A stretch of DNA of 64,000 nucleotides from Leucoraja erinacea (Eukaryota), in assembly GCF_028641065.1 (NCBI RefSeq), contig NC_073410.1:7378001-7442000 (forward strand). The letters are read 5' to 3'. Under the pieces are notes generated by a model. That model made no database searches. It was not told the origin of the DNA and saw nothing but the letters and a program-made list of their open reading frames with translations. The position numbers and the translations under genes were made by a program. The first letter of the stretch is position 1; each line of letters begins with the position of its first letter. Shown in pieces: positions 8,143 through 53,800 of the stretch.

Positions 8143-8307
8143 CTGACACAAGGAGCCTGGAGTCTTGGCCGTCTCCCGAGTTATGGGTGCAGCTACCCAC
8201 AGGAAGAGGGGCGCAAGCTTATTTGGGGTGCAACACTTATTGCCCCACCTCACCCTCTCAGGATTCAGTCAATGCAACAACCCTGAAAACATGAATGAAA
8301 AGAACTT

Positions 8308-8695
8308 ACACAAAAATGCTGGAGAAACTCAGCAGGTGCAGCAGCATCTATGGAGCGAAGGAAATAGGCAACGTTTTGGTCCGAAACCCTTCCTCAGACT
8401 GATAGGGGGTGGCGGGGAGAAGGAAGGAAAAAGGAGGAGGAGCCCAAGGGCTGGGGGAATGGGAGGAGGAGACAGCAAGGGCTAACAAAATTGGGAGAAT
8501 TCAATGTTCATGCCCGCAGGATGCAGACTCCCCAAGCGGAATATGAGGTGCTGTTCCTCCAATTTCCGGTGTTGCTCACTCTGGCCATGGAGGAGACCCA
8601 GGACAGAGAAGTCGGATTCGGAGTGGAAGGGGGAGTTGTAGTGCTGAGGTAGGTTCTTGCGGACCGAGCGGAGGTGTTCGGCGAAACGATTGCCC
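8308..8695 (-). mobile_element. Penelope-like element 3' fragment (GIY-YIG C-terminus + tail)
   Basis: ORF 8482-8751 LGNRFAEHLRSVR...HSESDFSVLGLLHGQSEQHRKLEEQHLIFRLGSLHPAGMNIEFSQF; 14-bp TSD AATGAAAAGAACTT at 8294-8307 and 8696-8709. Confidence 0.85.
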
Positions 8696-9082
8696 AATGA
8701 AAAGAACTTGTTCTCTGACAGGAGAAATGTACAGTTATTAATCCAACCCAAAACCGCTGTTCTTGAGGGGCAGAGAAGATTTCAAATCTCACAGTCCAAT
8801 TATAGAACTGTCATTGCCGATCATGTAAGTTTATTTTCCCTCATAATAATGGCAAACAAATGGGATTATTTTTACTTTAATTGTCTTGTTCTGTGATTGA
8901 TTTACTCAGCAGTGCCACAGATATGTCTGCAAGACATGCAAATTTGTAATGTGGTAAGTTCTGTAAATGAGGTAAACACGTGCAAAAAGTTGTCATCGAC
9001 TTCGGCAGCATGTGGCCATTCAGCCCTGGAAGTCCATGCTAGCATTGATGCTCCACTGAGTCTTCTCAGTAAATTATCACTA

Positions 9083-9282
9083 GCGTGTAGGGTTTTCTAC
9101 AAGATCTTTGGTTTCTTCCCACACTCCAACGGCGTACAGGTTTGGAGGTTAATTGGCTTGGTATAAATGTAAATTGCCCCTCGTGGGTGTAGGATGGTGT
9201 TAATGTGCGGGGATCGCTGGTCGATGCAGATCTGGTGGGCCGAAGGGCCTGTTTCCGCTCTGTGTCTCTAAGCTAACCTAAA
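9083..9282 (+). mobile_element. HE1-like V-SINE, 5'-truncated
   Basis: V domain to tail only. Confidence 0.75.
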
Positions 9283-49723: not shown

Positions 49724-50325
49724 TTGTGTGAATGAGTGCATCTGAACACGAGAGTTATTGTGTGTGCGAGTGCTCAGAGTGTGTGGGTGACTGTGCAAGT
49801 ATGAGGCTATGTGGGTGCGACTGCTTGTGAGCTTTTGTCTCAGACTGTGTGTGTGTGTGTGTGTGTGTGTGTGACTGTGTATGCGCGACTGCAAGCGATT
49901 CGGCTTGTGTGAGAATCTGTGCGTGTGTATGCATATACGACTGTGTGAAACCAGGTGTGTGATTGAGTCTTCAAGAAGGAACTGCGGATGCTGGAAAATC
50001 GAAGGTACACAAAAATGCTGGAGAAACTCAGCGGGTGCAGGCAGCATCTATGGAGCGAAGGAAATAGATAACGTTTGGGGCCGAAACCCTTCTTCAATCC
50101 GTGTGATTGAGTCTGTTTGTGTGAGACTATGCATGTGTGTATATGGCCATGTGAGTGAGGCCAGCTGTGTGAGCAAGTGACCGTGTGTGAGAGAGAGAGA
50201 TTGTGTACATGTATGACTGCGTGTGTGCATGTGTAAGTGAGTGACAGTGCATTGTGTATAAGTGTGTGCTCATGTGTCATGGCATGCGAGTGTGTGCGTG
50301 CGTGTCACTGCATGTGAGTGTGTAT
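49724..50325. repeat. Degenerate (TG)-rich tract containing a Penelope-tail insertion
   Basis: Pure (TG)n at ~49846-49873 within a cryptic TG-rich tract. Confidence 0.85.
49971..50100 (-). mobile_element. Penelope-tail mini-element (130 bp, B subfamily)
   Basis: Perfect 14-bp TSD GTGTGATTGAGTCT at 49957-49970 and 50101-50114; 5' end at the hammerhead core. Confidence 0.88.
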
Positions 50326-50483
50326 AAAATAGAGACAGGGACAGATCAGCCAGCTCTGGCTCAATCCATGGAAGGGTTTGTATAACCCATAGAGGCCTCA
50401 TTAGTCACCAGTACTCACTGGACCCCTATCAGAGTAAATGCTTGATCCCAACGGAAGTGTGCGTGTGTTCTCGTGTAGTTATG

Positions 50484-50810
50484 CATGACATGCTGTGCAT
50501 TGCTTTCTCCACTATAATATTCCCGTTCATCCTCATTTATAATGAAGAACAACTCTAGCAACAAGATACAAGATACATTTATTCGTCACATGTGCCAGAT
50601 GGCACAGTGAAATGAAATTCCCATACAGCCATACAATAAAAATAAAGGACACGACACACAATAGAATTGAACATAAAACATCCCCACACAGCAGAATCAG
50701 AGTTTCCCCACTGTGTGGGAAGGCACCAAAGTTTCCCAGCGTTGTTCTTCATGGTAAATGGGGGTGAAGAGGAATATTAAAATGGAGGAAGCAATACACA
50801 GCTTGACATG
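50484..50810. repeat. Old 75-bp inverted repeat with a retroposon tail (~50560-50735, -) in the loop
   Basis: Arms 50484-50558 and 50736-50810 are ungapped complements, about 61/75 by hand count. Confidence 0.8.
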
Positions 50811-53800
50811 GATTATTATCTGAATACAATTATTTACAAAAACTACAAGGATAGATGATTAATTACAAAGTTTACAGTACAATCATTAGATCAATTATTT
50901 ACAGTCTGGGCCTGTAAAGAATCAGTACAACTTCTCTTGTTCTGCCAGGTGGCTTTTCCTGGTATATGACATTGGTACACAGAAGCTAACATGTACAAGC
51001 ACATTGAACAAGAAGAACTCTTTCAAATACCCAAATGTAAACAAGACCAGCTGAATGACAATCCTACTAATCTGCCTAATGATGAATACTGATGTTAAGT
51101 GGATCTCTCTACAAATGGCAACTGAATAAAGCAAACATTATCACAAGTAGAGGTTTAATCAGAATGAGTTTTTTTTTTGTTTGATGAAGACAATGTTTTC
51201 AGCTTTAAGGAAGTGCGATTCTTACTTAACATTTAAAAATGGTTACAAGTGCATAAATATCAATTCCAACATTGTACAGCTTGGTTAATGGATGTTGACG
51301 GGCATCATGAAGAAAGAGGATGGGCAAAGCTTTATTAACTCATTGGTAAAACTTGCAAGAATTGCCTCGGCTGCTTCTGGCAAATATGTGCCTAATTGTT
51401 GCATCCATAATAAGTTGCTATGGTACAGTACATTATTTGTCATGTGTACTGAGGTACAGTGAAATTCATTTTTGTTTACAGTTCAGTACAATATCACTCT
51501 ATATAAGCACTTAGACACATCTTAGATAAGCATCTCAGATATAGTACATGTGTACAGCAGTAGTTAGTGCTGACTTTGTTTTGGTTTCCACAGATACAAC
51601 CTCAGATGGCTTGACCATTGATCGTTGATCAATCAGTGGCCAAAGAGTCATAGAGTGATACAGTGTGGAAACAGACCATTCAACCTGACTTGCTCAACAT
51701 GTCCCAGCTACACTAGTCCCACCTGCCCACGTTTGGTCCATATTCCCCCCCCCCCCCAAACCTGTCCTATCCATGTCCCCATCTAACTGTTTCTTAAGCG
51801 ATGTGATGGTCCCTGCCTCAACTACATCCTCTGGCAGCTTGTTCCGTACACCCACCACCCTTTGTGTGAAAAGTTTACCTATTCATTCCTAAGTTAACCT
51901 ATTAATTAATCAATCAGATGCTTATTAAGATGGCACCTCGCCACCACCTTCTGAAAGACACTTGGGTATGGACAATATCACCACAATTCACACCCGCCTC
52001 AACACACCCAGTATTATTCATCACAGACAGTACACTATCTCGGTGTTGTCTGCTCACATGACCAATTTGCAGGGTTATTTCTAGTCCTCCGGAACAGCGT
52101 GAGCATCCAACAAGACCTCTGTGCTCTACTCAATCACTTGCCTTTCATCGATCGTGGCCACCCTTGGGGACCGCGAGTTTTTCACTGGAGTCCCGGAGAG
52201 TCCCAAACTGAGTCCCTTATCAAAGTGGCCCAAAACCTCCAGACCACAATTTGCAGTATCACAGACAGTCTTTTATACCACCTGTGTGTGTTGCACACGT
52301 ATCTTCTATTTTTGTAGTCTTTTTTTTCCTTTTACCATCTAGCAACATTTTATGTACAACTTATATTTTTGTGTGTCATCTTTGTGCCCGAGACACCGCT
52401 ACGAGTTGAACTTTAATTGACCTGTACCTTACCGCACTTGTGCTTATGACAATGGACTCGGTTTGATTGTTGGACACTACTCATCACACCCACTAGCTTG
52501 TGGAAAGGAAACTTTCCTTCAACTGTACTCTAACTTTTCAATCTTAAGCCCGATAGTTGCTTCAGAACTGTCAGGAAACAAAGAAAAACTAACAAATCCC
52601 TCAGTTCACCTTGTCATTTAGACGTAAAATAGAAAGCTATTAAACGGTTGCTTCCATCTATGTGAATTAAGAAGGATGATAACAATGCTGGCTGCTGTAA
52701 ACTTTCGATGGCTATGCCTCAATATTATTATACACAGGTTCCTCGGTTTCCATGACAATCTACTTCTCGATAATCCCGCAGCAATAACATTGCAGTCATC
52801 AAAGGCTGCCAGTGGATTACAGTTCAAGACACTCAGCTCAGGGGAAAGTCATTCACAGTGAAGTGTGGGAGAGATTTCGGATGGGGAGGGTAAAGCAGGC
52901 AGCAATCTGTGAGATTCCCAGTCTCTTCCTCTTTCCCAGCCGGGGAAAAGAGAAACAACATTCACAGGACAAAATAAAGATGACAACATTTAGAAAAGCA
53001 CTTACTGTACGTTTGAAGTAGGCCACTGGATGACAGAGATGCAGGAGTGATTGTCCAAATGAATCTAGCCACTGCCCAGAATGGGTAGTTGCAACATACA
53101 CGTCTTGTTTGCAGAGTTTGGGATGCCACCCAAGTCTGGATTAAATGTCTGCCTTGCATTGATTCCCAGGTACCAATGAGTAGCCTCTCTGTTGATAAAT
53201 GCAGTGCACTATTAATATAGTACAGTGGCCACAGGCAAAACCTTAGCATACCTGCCATCTGGCATTAGATTCAAGGATCTGTGTAAGAAGGAACGGCAGA
53301 TGCTGGTTTATACCGAAGATAGACACAAAGCGCTGGAGTAACTCAGCGGGTCAAGCAGCATCTCTGGGTGACAATACTGGTTGGGATCCTTCTTCAGATA
53401 TCAAGGATCTGTATTCCATTCCCCAAAAACACTAATTCCACATTGGAACATTTCCAAGCAATAACTGACAGTCACTGTTGCATACTCACTGGCTCAGCAT
53501 TGCAGAAAGTAAGAAGATCTCGATGTGGTCTAACTTACCCAAACCCTAATCAGCAATAATGTTTTCAGCTGCAGCACACATATCTGTTTTACTGATTATC
53601 CCAAATAGCTCGACAGCTAAGCACTTACCTTTCCAATTAAGACAATTACAACAAGGTGTCACACATTATTTTAAACTTGCTGGGCAGATGAGTCAAATCA
53701 ACAATGCCTTGAAGTGATTTCAGGAGAGGAACACATTCCAATTAAACTTATCAGCCAACATTTGCCACTGAGCCACATGAGAGGATGAAACAGAGCCGAA

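What the first reader, a model, noticed from the sequence alone, without database searches (positions are those of the whole stretch)
8294..53412. 90-200 bp hammerhead-headed units insert on their own with 12-15 bp TSDs
Seen: short non-coding units are bounded by duplications: CAGGTCATTGTAGGC (11434/11543), GTGTGATTGAGTCT (49957/50101), CATATTGAAGGTGA (26742/26880), CATTGGAAAT(G/A)GCT (25079/25234), TACT(A/G)ATTTTTGAT (29137/29334), ACC(C/T)GAATCAAAT (43950/44180), TCAAGGATCTGT (53271/53401). The coding fragment 8308-8695 has a 14-bp TSD of the same class. Several units begin within a few nt of the CUGA core (11542, 21550, 36477, 50100) and none shows Pol III boxes. Inference: a retrozyme-like non-autonomous family mobilised by Penelope RT/GIY-YIG, or a strong RT stop at the ribozyme fold.
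Basis: partly seen in the sequence, partly recalled or inferred. Interest (0 to 1): 0.72.

Follow-up and report, generated by a model that had tools for sequence, protein, structure and literature searches.

The report
Penelope stubs stopping before the hammerhead
These short repeats are stump-sized insertions of an ordinary Penelope-type jumping gene, not a family of their own; most end just in front of its small ribozyme motif while full-length copies run past the same spot, which likely means two kinds of RNA template are copied.

Summary
All eight TSDs are real. The units are the last ~100 or ~135 nt of Penelope-like elements (RT + GIY-YIG, ~3.96-kb circularly permuted unit). Long copies share the same two 3' ends and the same TSD class. 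At least four of the seven named units are inverted composites. In 1.264 Mb, 398 of 581 5' ends fall within -10..+19 of the hammerhead's front edge; only 13 lie at the predicted cut site (+32). Short and long copies interleave in a tree (56 label changes, 51.4 shuffled), so no master lineage shows and retrozyme hallmarks fail. New here: 30 of 37 young copies stop at this edge on first arrival, but 0 of 18 full-length copies stop on meeting it again 4 kb upstream (p=3e-9). That argues against a fixed stop at the ribozyme fold. Best reading (0.55): RT primes in the 5' pLTR and runs off an RNA 5' end, while long copies come from circular or read-through RNA. RNA reads did not show that end. The scan noted these stubs before in other genomes (six agreeing notes).

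The parts
8294..8709 (-). 5'-truncated coding copy (8308-8695): end of the GIY-YIG frame, pyrimidine-rich UTR, hammerhead, 3' end near +97; exact 14-bp TSD
11434..11557 (-). Simple short unit, family B (11449-11542; +1 = 11541, CUGA core starts 11538, predicted cut after 11511), 15-bp TSD, inserted into the UTR of an older A-family Penelope copy (11208-11681)
   Evidence: (11 paralogous empty sites)
21417..21550 (-). Short A-family unit +1 to +134 with tail; no TSD found by the strict scan
25079..25247 (.). Inverted composite: minus arm +7 to +98, plus arm +82 to +135 (tail); 14-bp TSD
26742..26893 (.). Inverted composite: minus arm from 0 to about +100, plus arm of tail only; 14-bp TSD
26885..27031 (-). 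Short unit +6 to +103 whose 50-nt 3' flank recurs inside one other insertion 83 kb away (L022/L229)
28163..28661 (-). Longer 5'-truncated A-family copy with GIY-YIG end, UTR, hammerhead and tail
29137..29347 (.). Palindromic family-B insertion, both arms joined at +13 through the self-complementary stem II region; one arm with tail, one without; 14-bp TSD
36477..36611 (+). Short family-B unit +2 to +137 with tail; no TSD found
42035..42897 (+). Longer truncated copy with linker, GIY-YIG (PF01541, E 3.2e-5), UTR, hammerhead and tail
43950..44192 (.). Complex insertion: inverted tail piece, plus arm +2 to +93, further switched pieces; 13-bp TSD
49957..50114 (-). Simple family-B unit +2 to +134 with tail; 14-bp TSD
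53271..53412 (-). Simple A-family unit +2 to +136 with a 13-nt internal deletion; TSD 12 bp (14 with one mismatch)

Best explanation
The units are the 3'-terminal ~100 or ~135 nt of endonuclease-bearing Penelope-like elements, each with its own target duplication, and they likely form when the reverse transcriptase primes in the first copy of the pLTR and runs off an RNA 5' end just in front of the hammerhead. Steps: (1) shown: the unit is circularly permuted, so hammerhead plus tail is both the 3' end of insertions and the leader of the ORF. (2) Inferred from the TSDs: the GIY-YIG nicks both strands about 14 nt apart. (3) Inferred from the two 3' ends and from PMC11167929: RT starts internally at about +100 or +135, often once on each target strand, giving head-to-head arms with one end of each kind. 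(4) Inferred: an RNA that begins near +1, at an initiator-like TCAGT behind a GC-rich tract, gives a strong-stop-like cDNA that is joined to the target, to the other arm, or jumps. (5) Inferred: long copies come from RNAs with no end there (ribozyme-made circles or read-through tandems), so they cross +1 freely.
For: Same 3' ends and TSD class in long copies. Permuted layout, hammerhead-to-hammerhead 3948-3975 nt in 3 of 3 copies checked. 398 of 581 5' ends in -10..+19; family-B end rate 0.027 per nt there against 0.001 at -249..-41. The stop is set by position, not length: medians +1 to +2 for both 3' classes (A p=0.27, B p=0.78). 172 of 220 tested flanks are unshared and not pyrimidine-rich, so the peak is not just unmodelled UTRs. 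Interleaved tree. 79 of 97 classifiable inverted pairs (of 121) and 31 of 35 TSD-bearing pairs have one arm of each 3' class. First arrival 30 of 37 stop, full-length second arrival 0 of 18. L245 and L248 read [+1..~+300][+1..+97]: a template that ends at +1 twice and continues into the ORF. An internal promoter with initiator is reported for Drosophila Penelope (PMC2377424, passages).
Against: No RNA 5' end was seen at +1: no place with many molecule starts in three raw-read runs, and the bulk-run reads were unstranded passengers in host transcripts (these libraries are poorly suited). A cap-derived extra G is at best marginal (10 of 21, p=0.046; 9 of 19, p=0.09). If RNAs starting at +1 were full length, some full-length copies should start at +1, and none of 18 does; the model needs priming to be confined mostly to the 5' copy, which is untested. 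In Drosophila Penelope the start site lies about 120 nt before the hammerhead and an intron ends at its edge (PMC2377424, PMC4209133), so +1 need not be a start site. Ends are ragged over about 10 nt, with a shoulder to +19 from inverted joints.
Confidence: 0.55

Rival explanations
1. First-pass roadblock: the RNA continues upstream, but RT stalls at the 3' edge of the C/U-rich tract just before +1 (bound protein, splice-acceptor complex or G-rich cDNA fold). On a circular monomer the second pass meets RNA that has already been stripped.
For: The geometry fits: the tract's 3' edge is at -4..+1 in both families (82-84% pyrimidine). It explains 0 of 18 second-pass stops. The site resembles a splice acceptor, where Drosophila Penelope has one (PMC4209133).
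Against: Copies that jumped from the 3' end into +294..+595 stop in -10..+19 on the later pass in 4 of 5 cases that reach it. The tracts of A, B and two further subfamilies differ in sequence, yet all long copies share only the motif from about -2 onward.
Confidence: 0.25
2. RT stops at the hammerhead fold itself.
For: The peak coincides with the fold's 5' boundary, and inverted joints cluster at stem II (+12/+13 in family B).
Against: RT moves 3' to 5', so a fold should stop it at its 3' edge; only 14 and 13 of 581 ends fall in +35..39 and +40..49. 0 of 18 full-length copies stop on second arrival. The +13 joints are explained by self-complementary pairing of two cDNAs.
Confidence: 0.08
3. 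A separate retrozyme-like non-autonomous family with its own master loci.
For: Very high number (about 0.8 million events extrapolated, three quarters short), own TSDs, and one apparent re-copying of a short window locus.
Against: 56 label changes against 51.4 shuffled, 481 of 500 shuffles as low (only 96 columns). One short copy is identical to two long ones over the core. Shared indels occur in at most 4 of 625 hits and are not tied to a clade. No tandem array of the unit. Starts are not at the cut site.
Confidence: 0.07
4. 5' ends are set by RNA processing at the fold's edge (5'-3' decay halting at the ribonucleoprotein) or by ribozyme self-cleavage.
For: Decay would give a ragged end at the same place and no cap. 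One full-length copy (L220 = L094) starts at +32, the predicted cut site.
Against: Self-cleavage predicts starts at +32: 13 of 581 in +30..34, no more than in neighbouring bins (16 and 14). Splicing to host exons predicts distant TSDs; none in excess (4 against 6 in controls, of 161).
Confidence: 0.05

Closest known systems
Insertions of EN+ Penelope-like elements (Neptune-type by linker motif): 5' truncation, partial tandem pLTR, adjacent inverted copy, 30-40 bp tail (PMC8557442 passages; PMC3846280 passages)
   Same: Single RT-GIY-YIG ORF, permuted tandem layout, inverted truncated arm, optional tail, TSDs, palindromes at inverted joints, solo pLTRs.
   Different: Here most insertions are only the pLTR tip, with a sharp 5' peak at the hammerhead's front edge on first but not second arrival. 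The solo pLTRs of PMC3846280 partly lack TSDs and were ascribed to recombination or deletion. TSDs here are 11-17 bp against 8-10 bp there.
Poseidon of Anolis (PAc) in vitro (PMC11167929, abstract, results and part of methods read)
   Same: Two internal RT start sites bounding the tail, both strands cut and extended, hammerhead in front of the ORF start, cleavage not needed for insertion.
   Different: That study does not address where cDNA ends in the parts read. Here the ORF starts about +170, after the tail, not in stem II.
Metazoan non-LTR retrozymes (PMC7229834 passages; bioRxiv 10.64898/2026.07.22.740005, first two of five parts)
   Same: Non-coding, type I hammerhead-bearing, related to Penelope pLTRs, many monomers.
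   Different: Retrozymes are tandem repeats with at least two ribozymes, processed at the cut site to circles, with their own families. These units are dispersed monomers or inverted pairs, begin about 30 nt before the cut site and match the autonomous element throughout.
Minus-strand strong-stop DNA of LTR elements and twin priming of L1 (both recalled, not looked up)
   Same: Priming near the RNA 5' end with run-off; inverted arms from two priming events.
   Different: Priming is on target DNA, the product integrates directly, and the two primers use fixed start sites.

Membership tests
EN+ Penelope-like element | Single ORF with RT and C-terminal GIY-YIG | tested here: met
   906-aa and 807-aa open stretches hit RVT_1 (E 6e-6, 3e-6) and GIY-YIG (E 0.008, 0.007), all under Pfam's cut-offs; window 42336-42659 passes the GIY-YIG cut-off
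EN+ Penelope-like element | Partial tandem forming pLTRs | tested here: met
EN+ Penelope-like element | Adjacent inverted 5'-truncated copy and optional 30-40 bp tail | tested here: met
   L078, L082, L085; 121 head-to-head pairs of 557 events; 3' ends bimodal near +100 and +135
EN+ Penelope-like element | Minimal type I hammerhead in the pLTR (extra base before stem II, palindromic helix III) | tested here: met
   Core letters and 4-bp stem II in 98 of 175 cores that fit the pattern, with a U-A to U-G switch between families. Rfam gave no hit and the minimum-energy fold is not the hammerhead
EN+ Penelope-like element | Ribozyme self-cleavage and TPRT activity | not testable with these tools
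   needs bench work
Neptune clade | CX2-5CxxC linker between RT and EN | tested here: met
   Cx4Cx2C read in the translations; criterion from PMC8557442
Neptune clade | Placement in the RT tree | not tested
   no reference set fetched
Non-LTR retrozyme | Tandem repeats with two or more ribozymes | tested here: not met
   no array of the unit in the window; 30 same-strand neighbours in 1.264 Mb are mixed dimers, nested insertions or partial duplications
Non-LTR retrozyme | Monomer bounded by the cleavage site | tested here: not met
   13 of 581 starts at +30..34
Non-LTR retrozyme | Own family lineage apart from the autonomous element | tested here: not met
   limited power with 96 columns
Non-LTR retrozyme | Abundant small linear or circular RNA | tested here: inconclusive
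   no pile of starts or ends, but oligo-dT and single-cell libraries would miss it
SINE | Pol III A and B boxes | tested here: not met
   no B box in 9 units (patterns recalled)

The most novel reading that the evidence does not exclude
Penelope-like elements use two templates: a linear RNA starting at the hammerhead's front edge, whose strong-stop cDNA integrates directly and has left roughly half a million SINE-like stubs in this genome, and a ribozyme-generated circular RNA that yields the long partial tandems. The hammerhead would then be what lets the element escape its own strong stop, and re-copied stubs would be the raw material of retrozymes.
Probability: 0.3. Interest if true: 0.7.

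Novelty: new variant of a known kind. Interest (0 to 1): 0.4.

Why it matters
How Penelope-like elements make their partial tandems and what their hammerhead does are open questions: circles were proposed (PMC4209133) while cleavage proved dispensable in vitro (PMC11167929). A genome with hundreds of thousands of stubs records the reaction. The contrast between first and second arrival at one site, and the one-arm-of-each-kind rule, give sharp predictions for an in vitro system that already exists. For annotation, these stubs should be filed as Penelope ends, not as a SINE, MITE, microRNA hairpin or retrozyme family.

Tried and rejected
Rfam: only sub-threshold microRNA-like hits on the palindromes. 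Self-cleavage as source of the 5' end: rejected. Splicing of host exons onto the AG at +1/+2, suggested by the base make-up at the junction: rejected, as TSDs abut ends that keep the upstream TCAG and distant TSDs are not in excess. Cap-G test: inconclusive. Automated microhomology count: 24 of 35 junctions could not be placed. RNA: no RNA holder listed on record; the lay gave no starts. Empty orthologous sites: organism C (run X15) has contigs that run from unique flank 26-30 letters into both units tested, short of the tool's 31-letter bridging rule but consistent with filled sites; runs X14, X19, X20 did not cover the flanks. Target preference for one CR1 spot (lead from e1-9922716): among 441 3' flanks the largest in-register groups had 3-4 members, mostly other causes; a mild excess near offset zero is unresolved. 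No A-family full-length copy was obtained, so the second-arrival test rests on family B alone. No large protein searches or folds were run. Literature searches for a described 5' peak found none in the parts read; subscription papers, Repbase and Dfam notes, and all supplements were not seen and may hold it.
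Full report
Observation. The seven TSD pairs and the 14-bp TSD of 8308-8695 are present as stated. The unit recurs 57 times in the window by profile search. The window lies in G000, a 2.19-Gb assembly. I sampled 120 further 10-kb stretches at fixed round positions (10 next to the window, 110 spread over 38 large contigs), 1.264 Mb with the window. The sample is not a random draw and favours small chromosomes. A strict scan found TSDs of 11-17 bp (mode 14) at 72 of 557 events and at 1 of 529 shifted controls. 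Most events show no TSD under this strict test, probably because of age; that was not tested.

What it is. Below, +1 is the A of the conserved YAG four bases before the CUGA core, on the coding strand. Twenty long copies were fetched. They hold RT and GIY-YIG in one frame, with a Cx4Cx2C linker, and end in the same ~100 nt as the short units, with or without a ~35-nt tail. Three carry an inverted truncated copy; L082 is bounded by a 14-15 bp TSD. Copies that reach the 5' end show a permuted tandem: UTR, hammerhead, tail, then the ORF start near +170, with a unit of 3948-3975 nt in the 3 copies measured. This is the known anatomy of endonuclease-bearing Penelope-like elements (PMC8557442, passages; PMC3846280, passages). 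The motif fits the minimal type I hammerhead of PMC4209133 (first two of four parts read). Its cut is predicted after +31, downstream of the core.

5' ends. Of 581 core hits, 398 start in -10..+19 and 234 in -3..+6; 13 start in +30..+34. In family B the end rate is 0.027 per nt in the peak and 0.001 at -249..-41. A confound exists: other subfamilies share the core but not the UTR. Of 220 single-copy flanks, 34 fell in shared clusters (18 clearly two further UTR types) and 14 more were pyrimidine-rich, leaving 172 with ordinary flanks. The A-family counts are therefore somewhat inflated. Copies primed at +100 and at +135 stop at the same place. Many TSD-defined junctions share 1-3 letters with the element or carry filler, some of it a vestigial inverted arm (by eye).

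Lineage. A tree of 175 cores (112 short, 63 longer; hits lacking an intact anchor or ending before +92 were left out) needs 56 label changes; shuffles average 51.4. Support is weak with 96 columns, but the one large well-supported clade (family B) holds 34 short and 19 long copies mixed. The long label was partly assigned by flank composition. Shared internal indels reach at most 4 of 625 hits. Against a clean picture: the short unit at 26936-27031 shares 50 nt of its 3' flank with one insertion 83 kb away and with no other of the 40 places scored, which looks like one re-copying or template switch.

Inverted pairs. 121 of 557 events are head-to-head pairs. 79 have one arm ending near +100 and the other near +135, 14 two short, 4 two long, 24 unclassifiable; about half mixed is expected by chance (p about 1e-10). 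This fits two RT starts, one per target strand, as in the anole element in vitro (PMC11167929).

First against second arrival. I examined all 40 best-scoring loci holding +138..+326. 25 run on through the ORF; 7 of them end at +32..+153, 18 reach +19, and none of the 18 ends in -10..+19 (13 end between -69 and -1138, 5 beyond -1362). Among young family-B hits in the sample (core identity at least 95%), 30 of 37 that reach +19 end there, 12 of 16 for singles alone (p=3e-9 and 3e-6). Left out of the 18: L214 (internal deletion, also passes) and L241 (same flank as L226). 13 loci are mini-tandems that jump from the 3' piece into +294..+595; 4 of the 5 that reach +19 stop in the peak (one search counted L241 as a sixth), and L245 and L248 begin both pieces at about +1. 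Seven more loci ended downstream of +270 and do not bear on this. Caveats: one family, copies chosen by BLAST rank, a downstream hammerhead verified for only 3 of the 18.

Mechanism. A fixed sequence or fold barrier cannot give a stop on first arrival and none on second. The simplest reading is two templates: RNAs whose 5' end lies at about +1, primed in the adjacent 5' pLTR, and RNAs without an end there. The site matches an initiator consensus (recalled) behind a GC-rich tract; TCAGT letters are kept in 57-63 of 72 long copies at each place. An internal promoter is reported for Drosophila Penelope, though 120 nt further upstream (PMC2377424, passages). Raw RNA reads showed no pile of starts, and the cap-G signal is marginal, so the RNA end is inferred, not shown. 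A first-pass roadblock at the pyrimidine tract is the main rival.

Comparison and novelty. Retrozyme hallmarks (tandem arrays, cut-site boundaries, own lineage; PMC7229834 passages, bioRxiv 10.64898/2026.07.22.740005 first two parts) are not met. The elements are new members of a known class. The sharp peak and its first-arrival-only character were not found in the papers seen (searches; other listed papers seen as search listings only; no supplements read). Extrapolation gives about 0.8 million events, 300 of 401 all-short as an upper bound. Earlier notes of this scan report the same stubs in other genomes. I had reached the run-off reading before that look-up, and the second-arrival test is not mentioned in the lines shown.

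Noticed in passing
window 26885-27031 and L022:7608-7860 (L229): A short unit plus 50 nt of unique 3' flank recurs, with a tail and an inverted arm added, inside a separate insertion 83 kb away on the opposite strand: a likely local template switch or 3' transduction from a short copy.
   Followed up: partly
L150:6200-6700, L151:5780-6300, L031:550-1060: One palindromic Penelope stub sits at the same place inside three copies of another repeat with inverted ends, so it has spread as a passenger of what looks like a MITE; a similar end motif abuts the unit at window 1071-1085.
   Followed up: partly
L213, L217-L219, L224, L225, L240, L242, L243, L245, L247, L248, L201: Mini-tandem copies in which the 3' piece is joined directly to the first 300-600 nt of the unit, skipping most of the ORF; L218 and L242 have near-identical +51..+98 repeats at both ends.
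   Followed up: partly
L050, L155, L170; RNA joints: Short tandem duplications of 33-42 nt covering the hammerhead's front part, as if RT re-copied the template end.
   Followed up: no
L166:9414-9939, L174, L015, L153: Head-to-tail dimers, in one case of two different subfamilies, where the downstream unit ends near +100 and the upstream one near +135, the same pairing as in inverted copies.
   Followed up: partly
window 29113-29150 and 36612-36641; L081 and L086: Pairs of Penelope insertions whose tails abut the same spot of a CR1-like repeat; target preference or shared transduced flank is unresolved.
   Followed up: partly
L220 (= L094): A full-length copy whose 5' end is exactly the predicted ribozyme cut site (+32); one case in 25.
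   Followed up: no
window 25916-26498: A long imperfect inverted duplication with open frames on both strands and a 10-bp tandem unit at 26112-26152; not part of the Penelope family.
   Followed up: no
window 30520-31700, 33453-33840, 16824-17136, 18339-18647: Fragments of a second, CR1-like retrotransposon (RVT_1 hit at 30967-31545, E 4e-9) and several copies of a SINE-like repeat (families D6, D8, D11-D14).
   Followed up: no
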